28,908 nucleotides of DNA from positions 1 to 28,908 of the forward strand of contig SUPR01000040.1 of assembly GCA_005191425.1 (NCBI GenBank), read 5' to 3'. The position numbers and the translations under genes are program-made. This document shows positions 12,791 through 26,978 of the stretch, one piece after another. The notes beneath the pieces are model-generated. The model was not told the DNA's origin. It saw only the letters and a program-made list of their open reading frames with translations, and did not search any database. Each line of letters starts with the position of its first letter. The stretch's first letter is position 1. Source of the stretch: Candidatus Helarchaeota ASGARD archaeon Hel_GB_B (GTDB lineage Archaea > Asgardarchaeota > Lokiarchaeia > Helarchaeales > HEL-GB-B).

Positions 12791-13153
12791 TTATATTTCA
12801 TTTTTTTCTTTATCAGGGTCATCAATTGATTCGATAACAATTCTTAAACCCAAAAAGAGGGCACGAACTATTTTTTCTCTGCCGCTCTTTAGTAATCGCC
12901 AAATTGTACCCCTAGAAATTGCCATTTTTTCGCCAGCTTCAATTTGTGTCAAATTTTGACAATCAACTAGACGTAAAGCTTCAAGTTCATCAGGATATAA
13001 CACAATTTGTCCATTTTCTATTAAATTATACTCATTGTCATAAGGTGCAAAATAAGAGGGAACAGGTTTTTTATTAATAATTCTATAAAAATGAGGCCTA
13101 CCAGGGCCCGTCTTCCTTTTTCCACGCCATCTTCGGCCATGAAATCCACACAT
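12791..13153 (-). CDS. DUF134 (UPF0251) family predicted DNA-binding protein
   Basis: GRP...P...F.P...LYPDELEALRLVDCQNLTQIEAGEKMAISRGTIWRLLKSGREKIVRAL is the DUF134 signature. Confidence 0.9.
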   Translation of the reverse strand: MCGFHGRRWRGKRKTGPGRPHFYRIINKKPVPSYFAPYDNEYNLIENGQIVLYPDELEALRLVDCQNLTQIEAGEKMAISRGTIWRLLKSGREKIVRALFLGLRIVIESIDDPDKEKNEI

Positions 13154-13198
13154 TTTAATTACACATTTTTTTTATTTTAATCTATATAAAAATAAAAT

Positions 13199-14104
13199 TT
13201 AATTCATAATAAATTTTTGGATTTTATTAAAGATATCGCGATACGCTTTAACGGCAATAGAATCAGGGGCGTATTCTATAACAGATAGACCTTCAGCTAC
13301 AGCATAAGCAATTGAATTATCAAGTGGTATATTTCCTAGATGAAAAAGATTATTTTGTTCAAGAAATTCAATAATTTTATTTGTGCTTTCGGGGAATAAG
13401 TCAGCTTTATTGATTATTACGCCAATATGTTTAGTAAAATTATATGCCAATTGTAAGACTCTTTTTAGATCGTGGACTGCAGCAGGGTTTGGTTCGGTTA
13501 ATAAAATTATATAATCAGAATCAGTTAGAGATGCAATTACAGGACACCCTACACCAGGTGGGCCATCACTTAATAGGATATCAGGCAAAGTAGACTCTTG
13601 TTTGGCTATATTATTAGCCCACATTTTTGCTTCAGCTACTATTTTTCCGCTATTACCTTCCCCAATTTTTATTTTACCAGTTATTACAGTAAAACCATAT
13701 TTGGAGTGTTGCTTTAATAAATCACCGGTTTTAATGGGTCTGAGTTCTATACAGTTTTCAGGGCAAACGATTTCACAAACTCCGCACCCTTCGCAGAATA
13801 GATCTGAAAAAATTGGATGTTTATTATCTGCATCCCATTTGATTGCGTTAGACGGGCATTTTTCATAACATGTTTTACAACCAATACAACAATCATTGTT
13901 TGATAGAAATGCTTTTTCAGCTGAAAAAATGTCTTTTGTTTCTAGTTCTTCGCATTTTAGTACAATAGCTAAATTAGGAGCATCAACATCACAATCGACT
14001 AATATTATATCTTTACCTGCCTCTTTGAATAAAAGGGCCAGTGTAGCAGTTGTGGTAGTTTTCCCAACTCCACCTTTTCCACTTGCAATTGTAATTTTTT
14101 TCAT
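13199..14104 (-). CDS. MinD-superfamily P-loop ATPase with inserted 2x[4Fe-4S] ferredoxin domain
   Basis: SGKGGVGKTT, DCDVDAPNL, CIGCKTCYEKCP, CEGCGVCEIVCP, DGPPGVGCPV and TEP. Overlaps the upstream paralog by 4 bp (ATGA). Confidence 0.93.
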   Translation of the reverse strand: MKKITIASGKGGVGKTTTTATLALLFKEAGKDIILVDCDVDAPNLAIVLKCEELETKDIFSAEKAFLSNNDCCIGCKTCYEKCPSNAIKWDADNKHPIFSDLFCEGCGVCEIVCPENCIELRPIKTGDLLKQHSKYGFTVITGKIKIGEGNSGKIVAEAKMWANNIAKQESTLPDILLSDGPPGVGCPVIASLTDSDYIILLTEPNPAAVHDLKRVLQLAYNFTKHIGVIINKADLFPESTNKIIEFLEQNNLFHLGNIPLDNSIAYAVAEGLSVIEYAPDSIAVKAYRDIFNKIQKFIMN

Positions 14105-15036
14105 TCTTTTTTTAACTCCCCTTTTAATTTATTGAAAATTTGAATATAAGATTTTGACCCTACTGAATCTGGAAATTCTTCTATTACAGGTACTCCTTTT
14201 GCATATGCAACTTGAATGCTTTTATCTAATGGTATTTGCCCGATTATTGGGACTGAATATTCTTCACTTAATTTTTCAATTAAATCATGTCTATTAGTCA
14301 TATCTGAGCGGTTTAGAATAATATACGATTTAATAGGATAATCAATTACTTTTACAAGTTCTAAAATTCTTTTTAAATCAAACATGCCATAAAGCGTTGG
14401 CTCTGTGACATATAAAACAATTTTTGATCCAAAAAGAGAATAAAATACATCGCAATGTGCTCCAGGTGCTGTATCAATTATGATGCTATCGTAATTATTT
14501 TCTTTAATTTTTTTAAGAGCATATATTTTTTCTTGTTTAACTATTTCAGATGAATTTGGTTCTCCAACTTTTAATCTACCAACTATAATATCTATTCCAT
14601 AATTAGACCCTTCAAGTAATGCTCCAATTTCCTTAAAACCTGAATCGATGGCACCTACAGGGCAAATAATTTGACATGCTGCACAGCCCTCGCAGATTTC
14701 AGGAAATAATAGAGGCTTTTTGTCAGGGATATGTAAAATTGCATGGGGTTTACAAACATCATGACATTTTTTACATGAAATACATTTATCGTTAAATTCT
14801 GGAACAAAGATATTAATTTTCTTAATTTCTTTTAATTCAATGTTCATTAGAATTGAAACATTTGGATTATCAACATCACAATCTATAATTAAAACTTTTT
14901 TTCCTAATTTACTTAACATGTATGCTATATTTACAGCAACAGTTGTTTTTCCAGTGCCACCTTTTCCGCCAGTACACCCAATTATGTCTTTATCTAATTC
15001 AAAAAATTCAAACCAATCTACTCTTTCATCTACCAT
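14101..15036 (-). CDS. MinD-superfamily P-loop ATPase with inserted 2x[4Fe-4S] ferredoxin domain (second paralog)
   Basis: GGKGGTGKTT, DCDVDNPNV, CISCKKCHDVC, CEGCAACQIICP, DTAPGAHC and VTEPT. Confidence 0.93.
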   Translation of the reverse strand: MVDERVDWFEFFELDKDIIGCTGGKGGTGKTTVAVNIAYMLSKLGKKVLIIDCDVDNPNVSILMNIELKEIKKINIFVPEFNDKCISCKKCHDVCKPHAILHIPDKKPLLFPEICEGCAACQIICPVGAIDSGFKEIGALLEGSNYGIDIIVGRLKVGEPNSSEIVKQEKIYALKKIKENNYDSIIIDTAPGAHCDVFYSLFGSKIVLYVTEPTLYGMFDLKRILELVKVIDYPIKSYIILNRSDMTNRHDLIEKLSEEYSVPIIGQIPLDKSIQVAYAKGVPVIEEFPDSVGSKSYIQIFNKLKGELKKE

Positions 15037-15153
15037 AAGTAATACCCATAAAATATATTAAAAAAATATGAATTAAGTTCTTGTACAAATTTTTAGAATT
15101 ATTTATTAAAATTATTTAAATTTTATTATTGATATTTTTTAGAACTACTTTAA

Positions 15154-15645
15154 TTACCATCTTCTACCGCCGCCCATTCCTCTGCCGCCACCCATTCCTC
15201 TGCCGCCACCCATTCCTCTGCCACCGCCCATTCCTCTGCCACCGCCCATTCCTCCGCCCATCCCGTAATGAGAGCTAACCGTAGAAGAACTAACTTGATT
15301 TAATGTACCTGAAAGATATTTTTTAACAGCTTCTTCAACTGTTATTCCCGATAGTCCAGAATAAATCTCAATATTTAGACTATTTAATGCATAAAATGCA
15401 TTAGGACCAACATTACCTGTAAGTATTACATTTGCACCATAATCACCGACTATTTGAGCGGCTTGAATTCCAGCGCCTCCAGAAGCCATTTTGGATGCAT
15501 TATCAACGACTTTTATGTCTGCAATTTTACCATTGACAACTTTAACAAAAGTAAAAAATGCACAACGTCCAAATCTTGGATCAATCATAGCGTTCAATCC
15601 ATTATTATTTTGTGAACTAACCGCTATTATAACATTTTTGGCCAT
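15154..15645 (-). CDS. NifB/NifX (dinitrogenase FeMo-cofactor-binding-like) family protein with Gly/Arg/Met-rich tail
   Basis: IAVSS...IDPRFGRCAFF...GGAGIQAAQ...VILTGNVGPNAFYAL is the family signature. AAGGTG RBS at 15653-15658. Confidence 0.92.
   Translation of the reverse strand: MAKNVIIAVSSQNNNGLNAMIDPRFGRCAFFTFVKVVNGKIADIKVVDNASKMASGGAGIQAAQIVGDYGANVILTGNVGPNAFYALNSLNIEIYSGLSGITVEEAVKKYLSGTLNQVSSSTVSSHYGMGGGMGGGRGMGGGRGMGGGRGMGGGRGMGGGRRW
15166..15255 (-). repeat. Five tandem 18-bp units encoding (R/G)GMGGG
   Basis: Units start at 15166, 15184, 15202, 15220 and 15238; plus-strand consensus gcc(g/a)cc(a/g)cccattcctct. GC-rich against the AT-rich background. Confidence 0.95.
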
Positions 15646-15647
15646 AT

Positions 15648-16097
15648 TTAACCACCTTTCTTTTTATAATTTTTAATTTTTTTCTTAATTTCTTTAATTT
15701 GATTTTTTAATTCTTCAATATCCTCTTTTTTGGATAAATGATCATCTCCACCAATATAAGCTCCGCATTCGCTACAATAATAAGAATTTGGATATAAACT
15801 AGCGCCACAATTATGACAGAACTTAACTTCGCTTTTTTCCTTTTTGTATAATGGTTCAGTAGTATTTTGTTTTGAATTTTTCTGTATTTTTTGAATCTCT
15901 GAAAAATTTACAATTTTATTATCGCTATTTCTTTTATAAAATGCATTAGGGCCATATCCACACCTGCATGGTCCGACATAAGAATATCCTCGAATAGTTC
16001 TTTTAGTATTGTAAGTAAAATTATTAAATCTACTATTAGTCAAATTATTATTACTGTTATTGTTGAAATATCTCCATCTACAATATCTATTTCTCAT
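15648..16097 (-). CDS. DUF5320-like protein with double zinc ribbon and C-terminal coiled coil
   Basis: YVGPCRCGYGPNAFY motif, CHNC...CSEC zinc ribbon, and coiled coil EELKNQIKEIKKKI. Stop is 2 bp from the nifX-like start. Confidence 0.75.
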   Translation of the reverse strand: MRNRYCRWRYFNNNSNNNLTNSRFNNFTYNTKRTIRGYSYVGPCRCGYGPNAFYKRNSDNKIVNFSEIQKIQKNSKQNTTEPLYKKEKSEVKFCHNCGASLYPNSYYCSECGAYIGGDDHLSKKEDIEELKNQIKEIKKKIKNYKKKGG

Positions 16098-16765: not shown

Positions 16766-17767
16766 CTATAATGTCCATTTACCGCATCTATCGCCCCATC
16801 TGGCTATAATTGTCCCGTCATCTTGTTCTACATATGTAATTTCACATTGATTTGGGCAGTCGGTACAATTAAAAGCTTTTGGAGTGAATTTCATCTCACC
16901 CACATTAAAACCTTTAAATTTAGTTTTAATGTTATTTATCTCAATATATTCCCGAGCTAGCATTGCAGCGCCAATTGCGCCCATAGTGAGGAAATTCTTA
17001 TGTACTATAATTTTTTGTCCTAAATGTTTTTCAAATGCACGTCTGATTCCATCATTTGCAGCGACTCCTCCTTGAAATGTAATTGGGGGCAATAATTTTT
17101 TACCTTTACAAACATTATTTAAATAATTTCTTACCAAACTATTACATAGCCCCCAAATTATATCTTCTTTACTGTGGCCCATTTGTTGTTTATGAATCAT
17201 ATCGCTTTCAGCAAATACAGTACACCTACCAGCGATTACAACATCAGTTTTAGATCGTTTTGCATAATCGCCAAATTCTTCAATTGGAATTCCCAAACGG
17301 TGAGCTTGATGGTCTAAAAAAGACCCAGTTCCAGCTGCACAAATAGAATTCATTGCAAAATCAGTAATAATGCCATTTTCTAATAAAATCACTTTAGAGT
17401 CTTGACCACCAATTTCTAAAATTGTCCTGACACCAGGGACAAAATATGAGGCAGCAACTGCATGAGCAATTATTTCTGTCTTAGCAATATCGCCACCGAC
17501 TAAAGCTTTAGTAAGGTATCGAGCAGATCCAGTAGTTCCAACTGCACGTATTTGGGACTCATAATCTATGAAATCGTTCTGCATTTCTTTAAATCCATCT
17601 TGTACCGATTTGATAGGTGAGCCATGAGACCTGGCCCAAGTGCTATATATTAATTCCATATTGTCATTTATAATAGCAAATTTAGTCGATACACTACCTA
17701 CATCAATACCTAAATATAAATTATCATTTTTATCAATTTCAGCTTCTCTATTTTCTGCCATTACCAT
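16766..17767 (-). CDS. ATP-dependent CoA-enzyme activase (HgdC/BadG-type, BcrAD_BadFG family) with PlsA-type Cys-rich C-terminal extension
   Basis: YLGIDVGSVSTK, GTTGSAR, EIGGQDSK, MNSICAAGTGSFLD, AGRCTVFAESD and FQGGVAAN, plus the tail FNCTDCPNQC...WGDRC. Confidence 0.93.
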   Translation of the reverse strand: MVMAENREAEIDKNDNLYLGIDVGSVSTKFAIINDNMELIYSTWARSHGSPIKSVQDGFKEMQNDFIDYESQIRAVGTTGSARYLTKALVGGDIAKTEIIAHAVAASYFVPGVRTILEIGGQDSKVILLENGIITDFAMNSICAAGTGSFLDHQAHRLGIPIEEFGDYAKRSKTDVVIAGRCTVFAESDMIHKQQMGHSKEDIIWGLCNSLVRNYLNNVCKGKKLLPPITFQGGVAANDGIRRAFEKHLGQKIIVHKNFLTMGAIGAAMLAREYIEINNIKTKFKGFNVGEMKFTPKAFNCTDCPNQCEITYVEQDDGTIIARWGDRCGKWTL

Positions 17768-18875
17768 TGTTTTTTTTCTCCTTTTTATTTTTTAGAAGAT
17801 CAACATAACTTTCTAATCTTGTTATAAGTCCGGCTTCTCCAGAATGCTCATCAAAACCAAAAAATATTGGAGGGATATCAAAATATTTATTGCCGTACCA
17901 TTTTGTCAGAATAGACTTTGCAGTAATTTCTGGCATACATGTGAATGGATATATATGTACAAAGCCATCAAAACCTCTTTGTGCATAATCAATATATTCG
18001 CCCATAACCCAGAATGCTTCGCCACCAATATCCATCTGGAGACCGCCTATATTTTTTTGAGATTTATTTAAATATTCTAAATATTTTCGATGAAAATTAA
18101 CATGAAATTTATGTTTAATCCAATCATATAAACTAAGATTCATATGAACTTCACACCCCAATTCGCCCAATTTTCTTTTTATATCATGATTTACAAAAGG
18201 ATCAAGGGTTACTTGAATCTCACCACTTAAACCGACCTTTAAAATTTCATTATTATCCCGTTTATTAATTTCAATTTTATCAAATTCGTTTTTAATTCTT
18301 TTTCGGAGTTTATTTAATTCGTTAAAAGTATTTGCATCATCAATTAATTGAATACATTTATTGAGAGTGTGTGTAGTATCACCTTTATTGACCTCATAGC
18401 ACCTGATTTTTCCCTCTAATTTTTCCACGGTTTGAATTAATTGAGATTTCATTAGAAATAATCTAGCTGTACGAAAAATTCTAAAATAATTTAATAAAGA
18501 TTTGTCTTCAGATAATGCTTTTAATAATTTAATCCATTTAAAATCAAGTAAATCTCCTTGGGGTAAGTAATACATTTTAAAATCATAGCCTAGATCTCTT
18601 AAAATGCGTTCTTGGACGGCATAATAAAAGCCAAACCGACAAGGGCCACAATCAGTTGCCATAACTAGATTATCTACGCCCTCATCAAGGGCTTCAATAA
18701 AATTCGATAAAGTAACTTTGAAAGGAAAACAGACCCATTCTGGACTATGTTTTAGTCCTGCATCTAATTGTTTTACATTATTAGGATCAGGGAGGTAGAC
18801 TTCAGCACCAACTCCTGTGCATAGAACTTTAAAGGCAGGCCAGCAATTGCCCATATGAGGAAATGTAACCTTCAA
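17748..18875 (-). CDS. 2-hydroxyacyl-CoA dehydratase/reductase-like subunit (COG3581-type; PlsR-like reduction/dehydration domain)
   Basis: PEWVCFPFKVTL, TDCGPCRFGFY, PFTCMPE and FDEHSGEAGLITRLESYVD. TTG start with AGGTG 7 nt upstream; 4-bp overlap with the upstream gene. Confidence 0.88.
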   Translation of the reverse strand: MKVTFPHMGNCWPAFKVLCTGVGAEVYLPDPNNVKQLDAGLKHSPEWVCFPFKVTLSNFIEALDEGVDNLVMATDCGPCRFGFYYAVQERILRDLGYDFKMYYLPQGDLLDFKWIKLLKALSEDKSLLNYFRIFRTARLFLMKSQLIQTVEKLEGKIRCYEVNKGDTTHTLNKCIQLIDDANTFNELNKLRKRIKNEFDKIEINKRDNNEILKVGLSGEIQVTLDPFVNHDIKRKLGELGCEVHMNLSLYDWIKHKFHVNFHRKYLEYLNKSQKNIGGLQMDIGGEAFWVMGEYIDYAQRGFDGFVHIYPFTCMPEITAKSILTKWYGNKYFDIPPIFFGFDEHSGEAGLITRLESYVDLLKNKKEKKNNGNGRK

Positions 18876-19942
18876 AATTCAGCACCTACCTCTTTTTCTG
18901 ATTTATTTATTATTCCAATAGGCATAGTAGGTTTTTTATATATAATTCGGATATTGTTTTTCTTACGAACAATCATATCAACAAAAGCTTCGACTCGAGT
19001 AATTACACCAGCTTGACCGCTATGTTCGTCTAATACAAGCCCGATATAAGGGATTTTCAATTTTTTTGCATCGCGGGCCATGATCTCGTCAATTAACGAG
19101 TCGGGTCCACAACAAAATGAGCAAATAAAAATAATACCATCAATATCTTTTGTTTCAAATAGATAATTAACTGCGGATAATATCTCTTCCTCGTTTCCCC
19201 AATAATTCTCGAGTGTATTTGTAATAACAGTTTGATTCTTAAATATTTCAAGTGGTAAATTTTCAAGAGTTACAACATTGACCTTCATTTTATTAAGTTT
19301 ATTAATTAAGTTCATATTTATAAAAGAATCATGTACATTATAACCATGACCTATTATAGCAATTTTAGCGACATAATCGATTATTTTCTTTTTAGGTTTA
19401 AAATTTCTATTTTTGCTATTTAATACGTTTAAAGCTTTTTTAAAAGAAAGACCATCCACCATTAGTTGTCTGAAATATTTGTAGTCTTTAATAGCTTTTT
19501 CATATGCTTTTTTGATTTGCCAAGTTGATTTATGAAGTACTTTTCCTAACTTATAAGCCGATAAATACATAGGTCTTTTTTGCATATTGACTTCAAATTC
19601 GATTATTGGAGGTAAATTGTCGATGGTACCCCGTACCATATCGGGAAGGCCCAGAAATTTAGGACAAAAATAAGTGCCAATAGTTGTTGAAACATATCGT
19701 GGAACAAATAGATAGTCAATATTTTTTTCCAATAGATTCAATACATGTCCATAGTAAAGTTTTAAAGGTATACAGATTTCATCAATAGCATAGCGTCCAC
19801 CAATATCGATTATTTTGCTATTTGTTCTATCGCTGAGAACAATTTCAACCCCTAATTCTTCCAAAAATGTTTTCCAGAGAGGAAAATATTTATAATATAA
19901 TAAACTTCTTGGAATTCCAATTCTCTTTTTAATTACTATCAC
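18872..19942 (-). CDS. DUF2229-domain acyl-CoA dehydratase/activase-related subunit (COG3580-type)
   Basis: IGIPRSLLYYKYFPLWKTFLEELG, DEICIPLKLYYGH, YFCPKFLGLPD, SFCCGPDSL and LDEHSGQAGVITRVEAFVDM. Confidence 0.9.
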   Translation of the reverse strand: MIVIKKRIGIPRSLLYYKYFPLWKTFLEELGVEIVLSDRTNSKIIDIGGRYAIDEICIPLKLYYGHVLNLLEKNIDYLFVPRYVSTTIGTYFCPKFLGLPDMVRGTIDNLPPIIEFEVNMQKRPMYLSAYKLGKVLHKSTWQIKKAYEKAIKDYKYFRQLMVDGLSFKKALNVLNSKNRNFKPKKKIIDYVAKIAIIGHGYNVHDSFINMNLINKLNKMKVNVVTLENLPLEIFKNQTVITNTLENYWGNEEEILSAVNYLFETKDIDGIIFICSFCCGPDSLIDEIMARDAKKLKIPYIGLVLDEHSGQAGVITRVEAFVDMIVRKKNNIRIIYKKPTMPIGIINKSEKEVGAEF

Positions 19943-19953
19943 CTAAAATTAAT

Positions 19954-21426
19954 TCAGTCTGTGATCAATTTTGGTTTATCTCTAAAATCGTTAGTTAAAA
20001 TATCCTCTACGATTTTCTTGGAAGAATCATAGTAAAATTCTATGATATCATTAATGCGTCCAAGAACAAGGTTTAAGGGGATCAAAGGAATTTTTAAAAT
20101 ATTAGTAACTCTTGGAAATCTGACGGTCTCTATATTTAAGTCTTTAAGAGCTAATTCAATTCCTTCTAATATGGTAGAAGCAAATTCATCTGGAGTCTTA
20201 TTCTGTAGAGAATATTTAATATCGTCAGGGATAATACGATCAAAAATATTCAAAAAAGAATTTTTTAAGCGTATTTTTGATTCTATTGGATATGAATTCA
20301 TGTAGAGAAATGTAAACAATGAATAGTTTAATTGAAATGATGTCTTTAATATTTTGTTTTCGGCAATTTTTTTCAATAAATTGTTAGACCTTTCATTTAC
20401 AAAATGAATGATTATTAATCCAAGGCATTTAAGTAGGTCATTTTCTCGTCTATTGCTAAAAATCTCTAATTCTTCTTTTAGTTCGATTTCTCCATCGGTA
20501 TAAAGGTTAATCACGTCACGAAGTAGAGCTCCAATGAAACCAAGAGGGTCACGGACTATTTTTTTAACTTGATGTGATTCTAGTTTTTTGGGGAATGCTT
20601 TTTTCAGGAGTGAAATCCAATCGAAATCTACATGGACTATTTTTTTAATCCTTTCTTCTATTTTTAAGTAAATTTCATAATCTTTTTCAATGTTAGCATG
20701 AATTTCAGGTAGATTAAATACAGCAGATAAATCGGTAATATGATTACAAATTATATTGGGTCTTTCTGCGTTTAAAATTTCAGTAGAGATAAGGCCATTT
20801 GCTATTGCAATAGTATTAACATTAGCTTGCTTTGCAGCTAAAATATCAGTAAGTAGATCTCCAACGTAAATTACCTCTTTTGGGTCGTATTTTAGATCTC
20901 TAATTGCTTTTAAAATTGCTTCGGGACTTTTTGGTTTATCAATTTCGTCATTAGTTATGACAGATTTGAAATATATATCTAATTTAAATCTTTTTAGCAT
21001 TTCAATTATTTCGTCTTTTTTCTCACTAGTTAATAATGCAAGGTCAAATTTCTCGGCCAACATTGCAATTATTTGATCTGCACCACTAAAAAGTTGAGAA
21101 ACATTATTGTAACGTTTATAATTTATGTATAATTTTAGGATTAACTTTAGTTTGTCAATATAATGAAGCCCATCCATAAATTCAATTCCGTCTGATAAAG
21201 TATATGCATTTAATATAATATTTGGCATATCAGAAGAATCAATTCCCTCAATAATACTCAGTGCTTGTTCAACAGCATCATCAAGAGGATAGTTAATGTT
21301 ATATTCAGTCAGTACATCTTTAATTGCAGCTTTAATTGCAGCTGTATTATTATATAAAGTTCCATTCCAATCAAATACTATAGCTTTAGTATTTTCTAAT
21401 TTCATATTTTTTGCTAAAATTGCCAT
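19954..21426 (-). CDS. HAD-superfamily phosphatase (N-terminal ~235 aa) fused to an uncharacterised helical C-terminal domain
   Basis: Motif I VFDWNGTL (DxN variant), motif II LLTS, motif III KPKSP, motif IV YVGDLLTDILAA. AAGGTG RBS at 21435-21440. Confidence 0.88.
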   Translation of the reverse strand: MAILAKNMKLENTKAIVFDWNGTLYNNTAAIKAAIKDVLTEYNINYPLDDAVEQALSIIEGIDSSDMPNIILNAYTLSDGIEFMDGLHYIDKLKLILKLYINYKRYNNVSQLFSGADQIIAMLAEKFDLALLTSEKKDEIIEMLKRFKLDIYFKSVITNDEIDKPKSPEAILKAIRDLKYDPKEVIYVGDLLTDILAAKQANVNTIAIANGLISTEILNAERPNIICNHITDLSAVFNLPEIHANIEKDYEIYLKIEERIKKIVHVDFDWISLLKKAFPKKLESHQVKKIVRDPLGFIGALLRDVINLYTDGEIELKEELEIFSNRRENDLLKCLGLIIIHFVNERSNNLLKKIAENKILKTSFQLNYSLFTFLYMNSYPIESKIRLKNSFLNIFDRIIPDDIKYSLQNKTPDEFASTILEGIELALKDLNIETVRFPRVTNILKIPLIPLNLVLGRINDIIEFYYDSSKKIVEDILTNDFRDKPKLITD

Positions 21427-21478: not shown

Positions 21479-22861
21479 TTATGAATTATCATCAATATTA
21501 TTATTGTAGAATATAGCTAATTTGCTTCCTTTATCACAAACATAGATCTGCGCGTTAGGGTCATTTTTAACCCAATTATCAATTACCTTTTGTGGGTCAT
21601 TTATAGAAATTAAATGGATTTGTTCCACGATTTCAGAATTTAGGCTTGATTTAATCCAGATTTTAACTTTTTTTAATAATTTTGCAAATTTAAATGCTTT
21701 ATGACTGTAAAGTACATATTTATTTTCAATTGTCTTTAATACTTTATCAAGAGGCTCAGATAATGCATTATAAAAAAATTCTTTTGCTTTTTCATTAGGG
21801 GCAATTCCATTTCCAACTCCGCAATTGGCTAGGAATAAAATTTCACCCCCATCTTTAACAGCATTTTTAGTTAATTCAAGAGCCCTTTGAGAATCATATA
21901 AACTTCCATCGAATGGATATCCACCAGCTGAGACAATTAAATAATCAGCTTTTTTATTAATAGTAAAAGCTGCTATTTCATCTACTTTTTTTAGCCCATT
22001 ACTGGTAACTATATCGAAATCACCAGCTTCAGCCCAAAAAATTGCATTTTTTAAAGTTATCATATTTAATGTATAAGTCTCGGCATTTTTCGTAATTAAT
22101 CGCATGGCTTCTAACATGTCTTCGGCTACAGGTTGACTCTTCCTTGACGGGTCAGGGTGCAATGGATGCCTTAAGAAAGTAGATTTGTCTTTTAATGCTA
22201 ATGAATGATTTTGTTCTACAGTATCGTATGCACAAATTCCTGGGAGAAAGTTTTTAATTGGGTTACTATATCCTGCAAAATAATGAGTTTTTAGATCAGA
22301 AATTGTAAAATAAACATCACAACCATGCGCTTTTTTATTGATAATTACATCAGTACCAAATGAAGTTTTCCCTAGGTTAATAAATTCGTGGTTAAAGCAA
22401 TCATGGATAATGATTTCATAATTTTCAATTCCATTATTATGAATAGAAGATTTTAAAGCCTCGGCAATTTCTTTATTTTCTTCAGTATAGGGGTTGTGAG
22501 AACCAGTAGTGATTATGAAACATAACTTTTTTGCTGGTTTTAGATATGGCATGGTAACTTTAACAACTATTTTTTGAGAAGAAGCTCTTGTACCGTCTTC
22601 TATCAAAATGCAGACTTTTTTATTATCGACCACATCGTCCAATTTTTTACCAATTGGATTTTCAAGTGCATTTATTAAAGCTCCTTCTATATCAGTATTA
22701 ATTTTATTTTTGCTTATTGGAGTAAAAAAACCTAGAAAATTTCTTTTTGGAATATTTAAATCTATTTTATCCTTACCATAACCAACTTCACAAGATATCA
22801 TATTCATTTTCTGCTGAATACTTTTATTACTATTATTAATTTCAGTCATTATTATTAACAT
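21479..22861 (-). CDS. larA: LarA-family nickel-pincer-dependent alpha-hydroxy-acid racemase/epimerase
   Basis: EDGTR, TGSH, LGKTSFGTDVIINK, THYFAGYSNPIK, EQNH, SAGGYPFD and HKAFK match the LarA motif order. The substrate cannot be inferred, and the start may be a downstream Met (e.g. 22849). Confidence 0.85.
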   Translation of the reverse strand: MLIIMTEINNSNKSIQQKMNMISCEVGYGKDKIDLNIPKRNFLGFFTPISKNKINTDIEGALINALENPIGKKLDDVVDNKKVCILIEDGTRASSQKIVVKVTMPYLKPAKKLCFIITTGSHNPYTEENKEIAEALKSSIHNNGIENYEIIIHDCFNHEFINLGKTSFGTDVIINKKAHGCDVYFTISDLKTHYFAGYSNPIKNFLPGICAYDTVEQNHSLALKDKSTFLRHPLHPDPSRKSQPVAEDMLEAMRLITKNAETYTLNMITLKNAIFWAEAGDFDIVTSNGLKKVDEIAAFTINKKADYLIVSAGGYPFDGSLYDSQRALELTKNAVKDGGEILFLANCGVGNGIAPNEKAKEFFYNALSEPLDKVLKTIENKYVLYSHKAFKFAKLLKKVKIWIKSSLNSEIVEQIHLISINDPQKVIDNWVKNDPNAQIYVCDKGSKLAIFYNNNIDDNS

Positions 22862-25492
22862 CTATAAATATCTATCAGTATAAGTTTTTGCTTTCAGTTC
22901 TTTGAGTTGTGAATAAATTTCCTCGGCTAATTTGTATCTGGCATCTCTTTTCATTCTTTTAATTGGAATTGGTCTTCCTATTTCAACATTAATTTGGACT
23001 GGTGGAAAAGGAGTTTCTGTACCACCAATATGCATCGGAATTATAACAGTAGGTTTTCCTTCAATTGCTAATTTTACAATTCCTGCAATAGTACGGACAA
23101 TTTTTTCGGGATTTTTTGTCTGTATAAAAGCGCCGACCATTTTTTTATTTTTGAGCTTCTGTTTCAATTCTAATAATGGTTCAAAATCTTCCTGAGACTC
23201 AGTTTTTCTAAAAAAACCTAATGACTTCAAAATGGTCGAAACAATGGGTGTTTTATAAGTCTTAGCATCAATCATAAAATGTACTTGCTCTGGAACTATA
23301 CAATTTCCAATTACAAAATCCAAATTACTTGTACTAACCCCTAAAAATATTATGCCAGTCTGTTTATCCGAGGGAATATTTTCCTTACCATATATTCGGA
23401 AATCATATATGTTATTTACTAGTAATTCACAGGTATTTTTGGCAATTTTATAGAAAAATTTATCAAATGTTTGAGTTATGTCATACTTTTCTCCTATAGA
23501 CCTAATTCGGTTCAAAAATTTGTCGATTGGACTTAACTTAACAAATTCTTTCTTTTCTATTTTATTAATACTTGTAATACCCAATTTATTAGTTAAATTG
23601 TTAATGACATTTTCAAAAGGTAATTTATAATCACTATCTTGTAGTTGTCTGGCTGGTAATCTTATTAATTGACCAAATAACTTTATTATCTTGTCAATTG
23701 GCGATTCTACATCACTCAATAATTCAGGATCTGTCTGATTTAAATCTTCTTCATGTAATTCTTTTATCTTTCTCATTAAATCTTTTGTTAACCCCTTTAA
23801 TAAATCACGAGTTAAAATAGCATCATAATACTCATCATAATAAATAGGCTCACCAATATTAAGTTGTAATTGAAATCCTTTAGGAGGTATCATTACTTTT
23901 AAAATACCTTTCTGCATAGCATCATAAGAACCATTAATAGCCATTGGAATAATTGGCATACGGGTTTCAATTGCCATCCTAATAACGCCTGTTTTACCCT
24001 CATTTATATCGATATCTTTAAATGTTGTTTGTTGTGGAAAAATAACAACTCTCCTTCCTTTCAAAACAAGTGCCTTGGCAATTTCTAATGCATGAGTATC
24101 GTGAGCACCTCTTGCAACTGGAAATCCCCCTGCAGAAAGTGTCCAGCTTGAAATTATAGACAATTCTGCAAGTTCTTTTTTCATCATGAACCAAGTTTTT
24201 GTAGTAATATCATGTAATTTTCCTGGAATCAAATAACCCCAATAATCAATCATTGGTTTTGGAACCAATTTTAACCCATAGAAAAAAATATCAAAAAACG
24301 ATTCATGATTAGAAGCTATAATTGCTCCTTTAAATTGGTCTAAATTCTCTTTACCTTTTACTTTAAAATCAAAAGTTAATGGATTTACTAAGAAATTAGC
24401 ACTTAACCTAATAAAAAAATGACTAAAAGCATCCAAATAGTCTCCTATAACAGGAATTCTCGATGTATATTTGACATATTTTCTGTACAACATATCAAAA
24501 GGATTTTTTGGCTTTTTTTCTAAGGTTTCAAATTTATTAACGACAATTTCATTTATTGGTTTTTTTAACGATTCATTAAACCGTTTTTCTTTAATTTCGT
24601 GGATTTTACGCCTGCTATTCTCTTTTAATTGTTCGATTCTGGCCATTAAATCGCCAATTAAGCGGCGTAAATCTTCGTAACTTAATTCTTTATCATAATA
24701 ATCCTCATAATAAATAGGTTCTCCCATACTACAATACCAAATACCCTTTTTACTCGGAATAAAACTTCCACCAGTTAATTCATATAGTCCACTATGCCCA
24801 ATTGGGACTATTGGAACTTTATTTTCTATAGCAAGTCTAATAACGCCTGATTTTGCCTTCTGTTGTTTTTCAATATTGCGTGTCCCTTCAGGATATATTA
24901 AGATATTAGAACCTCTTTTTAAGAATGTCGACCCGATTTCCATAGACCGTCTCGCTTTACTACTAATCTCCCGTTCGACAGGAAATGCAGTTGAGCTAAA
25001 AATAGTCCCAAGTAATGGATAATTAAATAATTGGTATTTAGCATAAAAAATAGGGACATTCTTTTTATTTACTATACCTTTAAAATTATATCTTTTTAGA
25101 AAAACAAATGGATAATTTAAATCTCGTAATTCACAACATGCTCTTGCTAAATATAGGTGTTCTGCTTCCGTTTCATGATTAGCCGCAAAAATTACTGGTT
25201 TCGTTTTAAATATATTTTCTCTCCCTTCATATATCGTTTCTACCTTTCTATCAAATATTTTCAATATAGTCTCAAGAATCGAAAGAGATATAAAATCGAT
25301 TGCGGTATCAAATACAGGAATTTTACTTTCATAAGCTTTACGTTTAATCCATCGAATAGCTTTATCGACTATATTATTTGAAATACCCTCAATTTGTTCT
25401 AATTCGTCTAAAATTATATTGGAATTATGTTTATAATTAATATCACCGTCATCTGCAAAAAATTCTTCAATTGCGGTCAACTTTTTAAACAC
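22862..25492 (-). CDS. plsC: Glycerolipid (PlsC/LPLAT-family) acyltransferase with three tandem acyltransferase domains, 876 aa
   Basis: Three repeats of the fold. D1: FAANHETEAE / FPVER / IYPEGTR / SGVIRLA / PIVPIG. D2: IASNHESFFD / FPVAR / IFPQQT / TGVIRMA / PIIPMA. D3: GVSTSNLD / GFFRK / AFIQT / AGIVKLA / IIPMHI. Start is GTG 25492 or TTG 25480. Confidence 0.9.
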   Translation of the reverse strand: MFKKLTAIEEFFADDGDINYKHNSNIILDELEQIEGISNNIVDKAIRWIKRKAYESKIPVFDTAIDFISLSILETILKIFDRKVETIYEGRENIFKTKPVIFAANHETEAEHLYLARACCELRDLNYPFVFLKRYNFKGIVNKKNVPIFYAKYQLFNYPLLGTIFSSTAFPVEREISSKARRSMEIGSTFLKRGSNILIYPEGTRNIEKQQKAKSGVIRLAIENKVPIVPIGHSGLYELTGGSFIPSKKGIWYCSMGEPIYYEDYYDKELSYEDLRRLIGDLMARIEQLKENSRRKIHEIKEKRFNESLKKPINEIVVNKFETLEKKPKNPFDMLYRKYVKYTSRIPVIGDYLDAFSHFFIRLSANFLVNPLTFDFKVKGKENLDQFKGAIIASNHESFFDIFFYGLKLVPKPMIDYWGYLIPGKLHDITTKTWFMMKKELAELSIISSWTLSAGGFPVARGAHDTHALEIAKALVLKGRRVVIFPQQTTFKDIDINEGKTGVIRMAIETRMPIIPMAINGSYDAMQKGILKVMIPPKGFQLQLNIGEPIYYDEYYDAILTRDLLKGLTKDLMRKIKELHEEDLNQTDPELLSDVESPIDKIIKLFGQLIRLPARQLQDSDYKLPFENVINNLTNKLGITSINKIEKKEFVKLSPIDKFLNRIRSIGEKYDITQTFDKFFYKIAKNTCELLVNNIYDFRIYGKENIPSDKQTGIIFLGVSTSNLDFVIGNCIVPEQVHFMIDAKTYKTPIVSTILKSLGFFRKTESQEDFEPLLELKQKLKNKKMVGAFIQTKNPEKIVRTIAGIVKLAIEGKPTVIIPMHIGGTETPFPPVQINVEIGRPIPIKRMKRDARYKLAEEIYSQLKELKAKTYTDRYL

Positions 25493-26297: not shown

Positions 26298-26978
26298 GTG
26301 AGTTATTTGTCAAAAAAATCAGAAACAGAATTTAAAATTTTAAATGTATTAGAAGAAGAAGATTTAGGATTAACAATATCAGAAATTGCAGAGAGGATAG
26401 GAGTAAATAGGAATACAACTGCAAAATATTTAGAATCAATGGCTGAGAGAGACTTGATTTATAAAATAGAGAAGGGGCCCACTTCAAAATTATTCTATCC
26501 TATCCGTGTCCATAAGAAATTTTCAGATAGAGCAGATTATATGGTGAAATTTTATCAATTATTACATGAGGCATTATTTTTTAATTGGATGAAGAATGTT
26601 AAAAAAGCAAAAGAAATTGGCTACGAAATGGCAAAAGAAGCTACTAAAATTTATAAAAAACAATTTGAGAGAGTTGATATGACTTTCGAAAATATTACTA
26701 GATTAGCTGCTCTTGCTGTAGAAATAACATACCCAACTCCTAATGTACAAGCCAAAGTATATCTAACAGATGATAAAAATAGCTTTTTTTTGGAAATTAA
26801 AAATTGTATTTGTGATGGAAAAGTAAAGTATAGGTCAATTTGTGAAATTCAAATTGGTCTCCTTAAAGGAATAATTGATGAGTTTATAAAACCCGAAAGC
26901 GTCCAAGTTGAAGAAGTAGAATGTCGTTGTGATGGCTATAATTCTTGTAAATATAAAATTACAAGAGAAATTAAATAA
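26298..26978 (+). CDS. HTH + V4R (4-vinyl reductase) domain transcriptional regulator
   Basis: HTH GLTISEIAERIGVNRNTTAKYLESM; V4R-type LEIKNCIC...CEIQIGLLKGII...VEEVECRCDGYNSCKY. Confidence 0.9.
   Translation: MSYLSKKSETEFKILNVLEEEDLGLTISEIAERIGVNRNTTAKYLESMAERDLIYKIEKGPTSKLFYPIRVHKKFSDRADYMVKFYQLLHEALFFNWMKNVKKAKEIGYEMAKEATKIYKKQFERVDMTFENITRLAALAVEITYPTPNVQAKVYLTDDKNSFFLEIKNCICDGKVKYRSICEIQIGLLKGIIDEFIKPESVQVEEVECRCDGYNSCKYKITREIK

What the first reader, a model, noticed from the sequence alone, without database searches (positions are those of the whole stretch)
22862..25492. Triple-domain PlsC-type acyltransferase with complementary catalytic motifs
Seen: three tandem acyltransferase domains separated by helical linkers. 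D1 has HX4E instead of HX4D but a canonical YPEGTR. D2 has a canonical HX4D but FPQQT instead of FPEGT. D3 has lost the His (SX4D). D1 and D2 still share a 33-bp stretch with 29/33 identity (24692-24724 vs 23822-23854), and their NH motifs are exactly 870 bp apart, which indicates intragenic duplication. Established: PlsC enzymes usually carry a single such domain. Inference: the domains may have specialised for sequential acylation of different positions (di- or triacylglycerol-like products), with D3 non-catalytic.
Basis: partly seen in the sequence, partly recalled or inferred. Interest (0 to 1): 0.75.

Follow-up and report, generated by a model that had tools for sequence, protein, structure and literature searches.

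The report
Fused three-unit PlsC-like acyltransferase, Asgard archaea
An Asgard archaeon encodes one 876-residue protein made of three PlsC-type acyltransferase units (two with catalytic residues, one without the usual histidine), the fused form of a three-part enzyme that its relatives encode as separate genes, always next to an ester-to-ether lipid reductase-like system, which makes the question of bacterial-type lipids in our archaeal relatives directly testable.

Summary
The ORF at 22862-25492 (minus strand, 876 aa) carries three Pfam PF01553 acyltransferase domains. The motif deviations are invariant or nearly so in 26 homologues down to 51% identity.

The genome is an Asgard MAG. Homologues are labelled Helarchaeota, Lokiarchaeota or Promethearchaeota.

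The triple fusion occurs only in the window's own order (7 of 7 genomes). Most sister lineages of the class sampled encode the same three unit types as 2+1 or 1+1+1 genes. One family (f5) shows an active unit next to a His-to-Gln one. So the protein is a gene fusion of an old three-unit system, not a recent in-gene triplication.

- **Unit 1:** keeps His plus an acid and EGTR.
- **Unit 2:** keeps His/Asp but has lost the EGTR arginine everywhere.
- **Unit 3:** lacks the motif-I His, is as conserved as the others, and has its own invariant His. A complex model supports unit 3 binding unit 2 (0.62 against 0.00 in controls).

The genes sit beside a split Ger/PlsA-like reductase, and in most of the loci examined (not family f5) also a HAD hydrolase. 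The likely role is acyl-glycerolipid synthesis feeding ester-to-ether conversion. The chemistry is untested.

This is a new variant of a known kind. The scan has not found it on other DNA.

The parts
22862..25492 (-). ORF of 876 aa: three PlsC/LPLAT-type units in one chain
   Evidence: About 38 homologues, 26 of them aligned full-length forms of 863-907 aa.
24794..25231 (-). Unit 1 (D1) PF01553 core, aa 88-233. Motif I NHETExEH (HX4E, 25160-25180), motif II FPVERE, motif III YPEGTRN (24878-24895).
   Evidence: The motifs are invariant in 26 homologues.
24503..24706 (-). Helical linker 1 (aa 263-330), followed by the two-helix element of unit 2
   Evidence: AF2 secondary structure. Lowest conservation class, 0.52.
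23936..24367 (-). Unit 2 (D2) PF01553 core, aa 376-519. Motif I SNHESFxD/E (24290-24310), motif II GGFPVxRG, motif III FPQQTT (24026-24040), with no EGTR arginine.
   Evidence: The Arg is also lost in unit 2 of the split forms, which read YPEGTT.
23531..23836 (-). Linker 2 (aa 553-654), partly helical and the least conserved part
23027..23401 (-). Unit 3 (D3) PF01553 core, aa 698-822. It has no motif-I His (xSxxxLD, 23318-23338) and no motif III. Asp725 is retained. Unit-3-specific invariant residues include His738 (23279-23281), K744, R762, K807 and R852.
   Evidence: Forms a clade with stand-alone His-less proteins at 100% support.
21479..22861 (-). LarA-like gene (Lar_N + LarA_C), directly downstream. 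A variable accessory: replaced by an Ldh_2 gene in one relative and apparently absent in two genomes of the order.
   Evidence: Absence inferred from gap sizes.
19954..21426 (-). HAD-type hydrolase (aa 1-233) with a 250-aa C-terminal extension of no known family. A HAD gene is found in the clusters examined outside family f5.
18872..19942 (-). DUF2229 + HGD-D protein, the first reductase-like subunit of a split Ger/PlsA-like system
   Evidence: Aligns to residues 679-989 of a fused 1431-aa Asgard Ger-like protein.
17748..18875 (-). Second DUF2229-related protein
   Evidence: Aligns to residues 1043-1421 of the fused protein.
16766..17767 (-). BcrAD_BadFG ATPase (acyl-CoA dehydratase activase type)
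   Evidence: Aligns to both ATPase domains of the fused protein.
26298..26978 (+). Divergently transcribed HTH + V4R regulator, conserved upstream of the acyltransferase gene in relatives

Best explanation
The ORF is a real, conserved protein of an Asgard archaeon. It is the fully fused form of a three-unit PlsC/LPLAT-type acyltransferase assembly found through much of the class.

- **Unit 1:** has a His-acid dyad (HX4E here, HX4D in relatives) and the phosphate-binding EGTR motif. It most likely acylates a phosphorylated glycerol-type acceptor.
- **Unit 2:** keeps the His-Asp dyad but has lost the EGTR arginine in every lineage. It most likely acylates a different acceptor, probably not phosphate-anchored, or the second position.
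- **Unit 3:** lacks the motif-I histidine and motif III, yet is conserved almost as well as the other two. It most likely acts as a non-catalytic partner docked on unit 2, in scaffolding, lipid binding or substrate hand-over.

The assembly works with the co-encoded split Ger/PlsA-like ATP-dependent reductase (two DUF2229/HGD-D proteins plus one activase) and, in most lineages, a co-encoded HAD hydrolase. Together they would build acyl-ester glycerolipids and convert ester bonds into alkyl or alkenyl ether bonds.

Shown here: the architecture, the motif pattern, the series of fusion states, the synteny and the modelled interface. Inferred: the substrates, the order of the steps and the ether-lipid product.
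For: **Domains and fold**
- Three PF01553 domains lie above the cut-off.
- The best structural match is T. maritima PlsC 5KYM (probability 1.00, E 6e-5), followed by GPAT and PatA.
- The motif signatures are invariant in 26 homologues of 51-99% identity.
- The D3 core is conserved at 0.63, against 0.71 and 0.67 for D1 and D2 and 0.46-0.52 for the linkers.

**Distribution**
- The full fusion occurs in all 7 genomes of the own order.
- Family f6 (126 of 135 genomes with a match) has a two-unit protein of about 560 aa. Where I looked, it also has a His-less protein of about 235 aa, often on the same contig.
- Example loci: HAD | d1d2 | DUF2229/HGD-D | DUF2229 | activase | S3, and three separate acyltransferase genes in another family.
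- In family f5, an active acyltransferase sits next to a His-to-Gln one, beside the same reductase genes.
- Unit signatures are shared between fused and split forms. D3 plus S3 form a clade at 100% support.

**Linkage to the reductase genes**
- The acyltransferase gene is adjacent to a short DUF2229 gene in many genomes (coordinates; loci).
- The three downstream proteins align collinearly to a fused 1431-aa Asgard Ger-like protein.
- Ger is defined by BcrAD_BadFG + DUF2229 + HGD-D domains and makes 1-alkyl glycerol ethers from esters when expressed in E. coli (PMC13159169).

**Complex model**
- For a split pair (two-unit protein plus S3), the model supports binding but does not show it.
- The score was 0.62 and the best of 3 controls 0.00. 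That mark was reached by 58 of 80 solved complexes and 2 of 110 mismatched pairs.
- The runs agree in at least 69% of contacts, and the partner's pLDDT is at least 77. I used my own alignments, so the calibration counts hold only roughly.

**HX4E precedent**
- The PDB entry for LpxM names E127 as a catalytic residue (5KNK).
Against: - No activity, substrate or product has been measured for any member.
- Published lipid analyses of a cultured Lokiarchaeon reported only archaeal lipids, though the method may have missed ester lipids (as discussed in PMC13400652).
- The own genome shows no PlsY. I did not survey for an acyl carrier protein or for fatty-acid activation.
- The LarA-like or Ldh_2 gene in the cluster points to 2-hydroxyacid chemistry, which the lipid model does not explain.
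- Unit 3 has an invariant His at another position, so it may not be inactive.
- The complex model could reflect general PlsC-PlsC likeness rather than a specific interface. The 5KYM crystal entry has two chains.
- The AF2 model is only of moderate confidence (pTM 0.58).
- HAD is not adjacent in family f5.
Confidence: 0.55

Rival explanations
1. The three domains arose by duplication inside this gene and carry out successive acylations of one glycerol backbone, giving di- or triacylglycerol-like neutral lipids by a Kennedy-like route. The HAD acts as the phosphatidate phosphatase and D3 is inactive.
For: - The units are homologous.
- Unit 1 has phosphate-binding EGTR and unit 2 does not.
- A HAD hydrolase is in the cluster in most of the loci examined.
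- D1 and D2 share an insertion at the same site and the GEPIYY[ED][DE]YYD motif.
- D1 and D2 are sisters in one tree at SH-aLRT 92.
Against: - Only two units have a motif-I His, so three acylations would need a non-canonical unit 3.
- The three unit types exist as separate genes in sister lineages, so the protein is a fusion.
- The model does not explain the constant linkage to the DUF2229/activase genes.
- The HAD resembles small-molecule phosphatases of the HAD_2 type, all below their family cut-offs.
Confidence: 0.2
2. The cluster is not about glycerolipids. The DUF2229/HGD-D pair plus activase is a 2-hydroxyacyl-CoA-dehydratase-like radical enzyme acting on a thioester of a 2-hydroxy acid. 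The LarA-like or Ldh_2 enzyme supplies that acid. The acyltransferase units move the acyl group between CoA and another acceptor.
For: - A LarA-like 2-hydroxyacid racemase homologue (248 bits to malate racemase, below the cut-off) or an Ldh_2 dehydrogenase sits in the same slot of the cluster.
- The activase matches the acyl-CoA dehydratase activase family (TIGR00241, 205 bits).
- There are weak HGD-D matches.
Against: - The LarA-like/Ldh_2 gene is not part of the conserved core. It is absent from the split clusters and, judging by gap size, from two genomes of the own order.
- The strong match is to DUF2229 (186 bits), the domain that marks Ger/PlsA, not to HgdA/B.
- The best structural matches for the acyltransferase units are glycerolipid acyltransferases.
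Confidence: 0.12
3. The units acylate archaeal ether-lipid intermediates such as GGGP, a structural analogue of lyso-PA, or lyso-archaeal lipids. This would give mixed isoprenoid-ether / acyl-ester lipids or remodelled membrane lipids, rather than building diacyl lipids from scratch.
For: - GGGPS is present in 5 of 5 other genomes of the order and 49 of 50 of family f6, so the cluster coexists with the archaeal pathway.
- Chimeric lipids made by PlsC have been proposed for Lokiarchaeota (PMC6737245).
- Bacterial PlsC accepts both glycerol-phosphate stereoforms (PMC13400652).
Against: - There is no direct evidence.
- The model does not explain why two catalytic units and an ester reductase are needed.
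- GGGPS was not found in the window's own genome, nor above the cut-off in its congener. Both are about 93% complete.
Confidence: 0.13

Closest known systems
PlsC of Thermotoga maritima (PDB 5KYM), 1-acyl-sn-glycerol-3-phosphate acyltransferase
   Same: It is the best structural match (Foldseek probability 1.00, E 6e-5). Each unit has a two-helix element ahead of an alpha/beta core. The match to PF01553 and TIGR00530 lies above the cut-offs.
   Different: PlsC has one unit of about 240 aa; this protein has three in one chain. Unit 1 has HX4E, unit 2 lacks EGTR, and unit 3 lacks the His. The score against the E. coli-type PlsC equivalog model is 30 bits against a 501-bit cut-off, so it is not an orthologue.
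Two-unit acyltransferases (about 560 aa) plus stand-alone His-less proteins (about 235 aa) of other Lokiarchaeia-type Asgard archaea (uncharacterised)
   Same: They have the same three unit types, with the same unit-specific signatures and the same neighbours: HAD, two DUF2229 proteins and an activase. D3 and the stand-alone proteins form one clade.
   Different: They are split into two or three genes. Both catalytic units are closer to canonical there (HX4D; EGTR and EGTT). Identity to the window's protein is only 27-34%.
Ger / PlsA-PlsR (glycerol ester reductase; anaerobic plasmalogen synthase)
   Same: The neighbouring genes carry the defining domains (BcrAD_BadFG, DUF2229, HGD-D) and align collinearly to a fused Asgard Ger-like protein. 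Ger homologues in Lokiarchaeota were reported before (PMC13159169).
   Different: Here the system is split into three genes with a single ATPase domain and a different order. It is tied to dedicated acyltransferases, which to my knowledge is not a feature of the bacterial genes. Identity to the fused form is 23-33%.
OlsF, bifunctional ornithine-lipid synthase
   Same: It is one chain with two acyltransferase domains that perform two successive acylations (as described in bioRxiv 10.1101/2022.08.18.504050).
   Different: Its two domains belong to different families and it makes an aminolipid. The match of the window's protein to the OlsF model is negligible (18 bits against a 620-bit cut-off).
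LpxM of Acinetobacter baumannii (PDB 5KN7 / 5KNK)
   Same: It belongs to the same fold superfamily and has a glutamate named as a catalytic residue (E127A entry). This is a precedent for the His-Glu dyad of unit 1.
   Different: It is a lipid A secondary acyltransferase from a different Pfam family and a weak structural match (E 0.01).
Plant sn-2 GPAT4/GPAT6 (acyltransferase with a HAD-like phosphatase domain); from my own knowledge, not checked here
   Same: It couples a PlsC-type acyltransferase with a HAD-type phosphatase, so that acylation of glycerol phosphate is followed by dephosphorylation.
   Different: It is a eukaryotic single acyltransferase unit with a fused phosphatase. It has no pseudo-unit and no reductase partner.

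Membership tests
LPLAT/AGPAT superfamily (Pfam PF01553, PlsC-type acyltransferases) | Profile match above the curated cut-off | tested here: met
   Three matches of 62.5, 63.0 and 38.1 bits against a cut-off of 23. TIGR00530 scores 137.7 bits against 102.95.
LPLAT/AGPAT superfamily (Pfam PF01553, PlsC-type acyltransferases) | Motif I catalytic dyad HX4D | tested here: inconclusive
   Unit 2 has HX4D (D in 22 and E in 4 of 26 homologues). Unit 1 has HX4E, invariant. Unit 3 has no His at this place. So the feature is met in one unit, met in variant form in another, and not met in the third.
LPLAT/AGPAT superfamily (Pfam PF01553, PlsC-type acyltransferases) | Motif III (F/Y)PEGTR, the phosphate/acceptor-binding motif | tested here: inconclusive
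   Unit 1 has YPEGTRN, invariant. Unit 2 has FPQQTT. Unit 3 has no equivalent.
LPLAT/AGPAT superfamily (Pfam PF01553, PlsC-type acyltransferases) | Motif II arginine and motif IV proline-rich strand | tested here: met
   R174, R461 and R762 are invariant. The motif IV strands read VPIVPI, MPIIPM and PTVIIPM.
LPLAT/AGPAT superfamily (Pfam PF01553, PlsC-type acyltransferases) | PlsC fold: alpha/beta core preceded by a two-helix element | tested here: met
   The Foldseek top hits are 5KYM chains A and B, followed by GPAT1, squash GPAT and PatA. The secondary structure of the model agrees. There is no transmembrane helix; the maximum 19-residue hydropathy is 1.5.
LPLAT/AGPAT superfamily (Pfam PF01553, PlsC-type acyltransferases) | Acyl transfer from acyl-CoA/ACP to a lipid acceptor | not testable with these tools
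   This needs an enzyme assay or expression with lipidomics.
PlsC proper (EC 2.3.1.51, E. coli-type equivalog NF011593) | Equivalog-level profile score | tested here: not met
   30 bits against a cut-off of 501. The protein is not filed as PlsC proper.
Ger/PlsA-type ester reductase gene cluster (context of the acyltransferase) | BcrAD_BadFG ATPase + DUF2229 + HGD-D domains | tested here: met
   The neighbouring genes at 16766-19942 carry these domains. They align collinearly to a fused 1431-aa Ger-like protein. The domain definition comes from PMC13159169. The system is split and has one ATPase domain instead of two.
Ger/PlsA-type ester reductase gene cluster (context of the acyltransferase) | Conversion of an sn-1 ester into an alkyl or alkenyl ether | not testable with these tools
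   This needs anaerobic expression and lipid analysis.

The most novel reading that the evidence does not exclude
The acyltransferase units, the split Ger-like reductase and (where present) the HAD form a self-contained pathway, found through much of the Lokiarchaeia-type class. By this pathway Asgard archaea would make fatty-acyl-derived ester lipids and then alkyl or alkenyl ether glycerolipids. These are bacterial- or eukaryote-type chains made in the archaeal relatives of eukaryotes. Unit 3 would be an obligatory pseudo-enzyme subunit, or an enzyme with a relocated histidine. Such organisms could also be an unrecognised source of non-isoprenoid glycerol ethers in marine and hydrothermal sediments.
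Probability: 0.35. Interest if true: 0.85.

Novelty: new variant of a known kind. Interest (0 to 1): 0.62.

Why it matters
Asgard 'PlsC' genes have been counted as single markers in the debate on the lipid divide and on the origin of eukaryotic membranes (PMC6431249, PMC6737245, PMC13400652). Ger homologues were noted separately (PMC13159169).

This work shows three things:
- The acyltransferase is a multi-unit machine with fixed, unit-specific active-site changes.
- One unit is a conserved His-less partner.
- The whole assembly is genetically tied to an ester-to-ether reductase-like system through much of a class, apparently including closed genomes.

That turns a vague 'genetic potential for ester lipids' into a defined operon. 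It can be expressed, mutated and assayed, and it predicts a specific product class.

The series of fusion states (1+1+1, 2+1, 3) is also a clean natural experiment on how pseudo-enzyme subunits become fixed in an assembly.

Tried and rejected
- **Assembly or frameshift artefact:** rejected. The uninterrupted 863-907-aa form recurs in at least 26 independent assemblies and in all 7 genomes of the order.
- **Recent duplication inferred from the 33-nt match:** rejected. The match covers a conserved peptide in an AT-rich genome, and the units are only 27-30% identical.
- **Origin of D1 and D2:** not resolved. D1+D2 sisterhood had support of 92, then 59. The constraints D1+d1 and D2+d2 were not rejected (AU p 0.72 and 0.71). 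A sliding-window identity scan was equivocal. The test for D1+D2+d1 did not finish.
- **Architecture elsewhere:** among 1.84 billion representatives, only 6 proteins reached E 1e-30. Compact two-domain PF01553 proteins of unknown origin exist (P0046, P0082, P0123, P0153) but are not close relatives.
- **Literature:** searches for a multi-domain Asgard PlsC or for tandem PlsC domains found nothing relevant.
- **PlsY (PF02660):** not found in the genome, which is 93.7% complete.
- **C-terminal half of the HAD protein:** no Pfam match and no usable Atlas hit.
- **Sequencing runs:** no RNA holder is listed. DNA holders with at least half of the sampled words are labelled hydrothermal-vent and marine-sediment metagenomes. 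I did not lay the reads.
- **G1PDH:** the Fe-ADH_2 search gave only weak partial matches that cannot be called G1PDH.
Full report
**1. What is there**

The window has about 29% G+C. The ORF at 22862-25492 on the minus strand encodes 876 aa. Pfam PF01553 (Acyltransferase) matches three times, at aa 88-233, 376-519 and 698-822, with 62.5, 63.0 and 38.1 bits against a cut-off of 23. These are the only PF01553 matches in the 3.54-Mb genome, which is 93.7% complete.

The 29/33-nt match and the 870-nt spacing are exact.

The units are clearly homologous. D1 against D2 gives 30% identity over 281 aa (E 1e-27). D2 against D3 gives 27% over 271 aa (E 6e-11). The similarity covers a helical N-terminal element as well as the core, so each repeat is a complete PlsC-like unit.

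An AlphaFold2 model built on 26 homologues (mean pLDDT 74.8, pTM 0.58) shows three alpha/beta cores. Each is preceded by two helices, and long helices join them. Its best PDB match is T. maritima PlsC (5KYM), followed by GPAT1, plant GPAT and PatA. No segment is hydrophobic enough for a transmembrane helix.

**2. Whose gene it is, and how conserved**

The word-indexed search returned about 38 homologues. I aligned 26 essentially full-length ones (863-907 aa, 51-99% identity). Where named, they come from MAGs labelled Helarchaeota, Lokiarchaeota, Hodarchaeota or Promethearchaeota.

Across these 26, the deviations are fixed:
- Unit 1 is always NHETExEH, with FPV/IERE and YPEGTRN.
- Unit 2 is always SNHESFxD/E, with FPxxR and FPQQTT.
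- Unit 3 never has the His, keeps the Asp, and has no motif III.

The cores of D1, D2 and D3 are conserved at 0.71, 0.67 and 0.63 mean pairwise identity. The linkers are at 0.46-0.52. D3 is therefore under purifying selection and is not decaying.

In an exhaustive profile search of 1.84 billion representatives, only six proteins reached E 1e-30. The triple form collapses to one 50% cluster plus a fragment.

**3. The key comparative result**

I searched 400 genomes of the phylum. The 875-aa form is found in all 7 genomes of the window's order and nowhere else.

In the large sister family f6 (126 of 135 genomes with a match), the hits fall into two groups. One is an ORF of about 560 aa that covers units 1-2. 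The other is a separate ORF of about 235 aa that matches unit 3, often on the same contig.

- One such locus reads HAD (261 aa) | two-unit acyltransferase | DUF2229/HGD-D | DUF2229 | BcrAD_BadFG | His-less unit 3 (L015).
- In another family the three units are three genes in the same kind of cluster (L017).
- In a third family, which includes closed genomes, a canonical unit is followed by a unit whose His is replaced by Gln, again next to the DUF2229 genes and the activase.

Motif tables show that the unit types correspond:
- Unit 1 keeps EGTR everywhere.
- Unit 2 has lost the EGTR arginine everywhere (EGTT in split forms, QQTT here).
- Unit 3 lacks the His everywhere.

D3 and the stand-alone proteins form a clade with 100% support.

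Whether D1 and D2 are each other's closest relatives is not resolved. That relation would need a duplication or gene conversion in this order, and a shared insertion site and the GEPIYY motif favour it. The alternative is that they are orthologues of d1 and d2. Trees give D1+D2 support of 92 and then 59. The orthology constraints were not rejected and even scored better.

Either way, the triple protein is a gene fusion of an older multi-unit system. The 33-nt match is a conserved peptide, not a mark of recent duplication.

**4. Unit 3**

Beyond lacking the motif-I His, unit 3 has its own invariant residues across fused and split forms. These include a His 13 residues after the retained Asp (H738 here, 24 of 24 sequences), K744, R762, K807 (Arg in all 48 units of types 1 and 2) and R852.

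For a split pair I ran a complex prediction with controls. The model supports binding but does not show it. The score was 0.62 and the best of 3 controls 0.00. That mark was reached by 58 of 80 solved complexes and 2 of 110 mismatched pairs. The runs agree in at least 69% of contacts, and the partner's pLDDT is at least 77. I used my own alignments, so the calibration counts hold only roughly.

The contacts are between unit 2 of the two-unit protein and the N-terminal helix and edge strands of unit 3. I know of no solved heteromer of this kind, but general likeness between PlsC-type folds could contribute to the score.

The fusion in the window's order gives independent support for physical association, by the Rosetta-stone argument.

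**5. Context and likely function**

Downstream on the same strand lie:
- a LarA-like gene;
- a HAD hydrolase with an unassigned 250-aa extension;
- two DUF2229-type proteins, one with an HGD-D tail;
- a BcrAD_BadFG activase.

An HTH-V4R regulator is transcribed divergently upstream. The arrangement is kept at 75% and at 52% identity. In the latter case an Ldh_2 gene replaces the LarA-like gene.

The very divergent two-unit relatives are also flanked by HAD and DUF2229 genes. Coordinates place a short DUF2229 gene directly after the acyltransferase gene in many genomes.

The window's activase and its two DUF2229 proteins align collinearly to residues 321-639, 679-989 and 1043-1421 of a fused 1431-aa Asgard protein. 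That protein has the domain make-up that defines Ger/PlsA. Ger converts sn-1 esters into alkyl ethers when expressed anaerobically in E. coli, and homologues in Lokiarchaeota were already noted (PMC13159169). PlsA/PlsR make plasmalogens from diacyl lipids (PMC9702350).

The most economical reading is that the acyltransferase units make the ester substrate that the split Ger-like enzyme reduces. On this reading unit 1 handles a phosphorylated acceptor and unit 2 a non-phosphorylated or differently held one. The HAD enzyme may remove the phosphate in between. This assignment of steps is inference. The LarA-like/Ldh_2 gene is a variable accessory whose role I cannot explain.

**6. Comparison with what is known**

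Each unit belongs to the PF01553/LPLAT superfamily and has the PlsC fold. The protein is not an orthologue of E. coli-type PlsC (30 bits against a 501-bit cut-off).

Papers that discuss Asgard PlsC treat it as a single marker. My searches found no description of the multi-unit architecture, of the His-less partner, or of the linkage to Ger-like genes.

Precedents exist for the separate ingredients:
- two acyltransferase domains in one chain, as in OlsF;
- a His-Glu dyad, as in LpxM;
- from my own knowledge, a PlsC-type acyltransferase coupled to a HAD-type phosphatase in plant GPAT4/6.

**7. Verdict**

It needs correction on origin, which is fusion of an old three-unit system, and on pathway, where an ester-to-ether lipid cluster is more likely than triacylglycerol synthesis.

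This is a new variant of a known enzyme kind with real bearing on Asgard lipid biology. The function remains untested. The scan has no record of this feature on other DNA.

Noticed in passing
whole genome G000 and the same-genus genome G126: GGGP synthase (PF01884) was not found in the window's genome. In its congener it appeared only below the cut-off. Both genomes are about 93% complete. It is present in 5 of 5 other genomes of the order and in 49 of 50 of family f6. This could be chance loss in MAGs or a real feature of the genus.
   Followed up: partly
window 21479-22861 (-); L005:5053-6189: The slot between the acyltransferase gene and the HAD gene holds a LarA-like nickel-pincer racemase homologue here. 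In a 52%-identical relative it holds an Ldh_2-family dehydrogenase. Judging by gap size it is empty in two genomes of the order. Both enzymes act on a secondary alcohol next to a carboxylate. A role on the C2 hydroxyl of glycerol phosphate (G1P/G3P interconversion) is conceivable but untested.
   Followed up: partly
window 19957-20709 (-): The HAD protein of this order has a 250-aa C-terminal extension with no Pfam match and no usable Atlas hit. The HAD genes of the split clusters examined encode only 261-272 aa.
   Followed up: partly
L040:3637-9223 and L039:2693-8069 (closed genomes G134, G137): In a sister family, a canonical acyltransferase unit is followed by a unit whose motif-I His is replaced by Gln (NFQSAID / NSQSTLD). 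Next come the DUF2229 pair and the activase, with no HAD adjacent. So an active unit is paired with a degenerate one here as well, with a degenerate unit that lacks the unit-3 signature.
   Followed up: partly
phylum-wide: Fused Ger-like proteins of about 1400 aa are common in other Asgard families. Examples are f13 (30 of 31 genomes) and f18 (12 of 12), which showed no match to the acyltransferase at E 1e-10 or better. The fused and split reductase forms therefore have different partners.
   Followed up: no
window 12791-16097 (-): Downstream of the activase lie a zinc-ribbon protein, a Nitro_FeMo-Co (NifX/NifB-like) domain protein, two NUBPL/ParA-type P-loop ATPases with ferredoxin inserts, and a DUF134 protein. 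A matching set follows the cluster in the 75%-identical relative but not in the 52% one. It may be an Fe-S delivery module for the reductase.
   Followed up: partly
window 25480-25492: The called GTG start gives an N-terminus four residues longer than the consensus start of the homologues, where M aligns with L5. The true start may be a few codons downstream.
   Followed up: no
P0046, P0082, P0123, P0153 (metagenomic proteins, origin unknown): Compact proteins of 440-470 aa with two PF01553 domains exist outside the Asgard family. In P0046, P0082 and P0153 the two domains are each other's closest relatives, which suggests independent tandem duplications.
   Followed up: no
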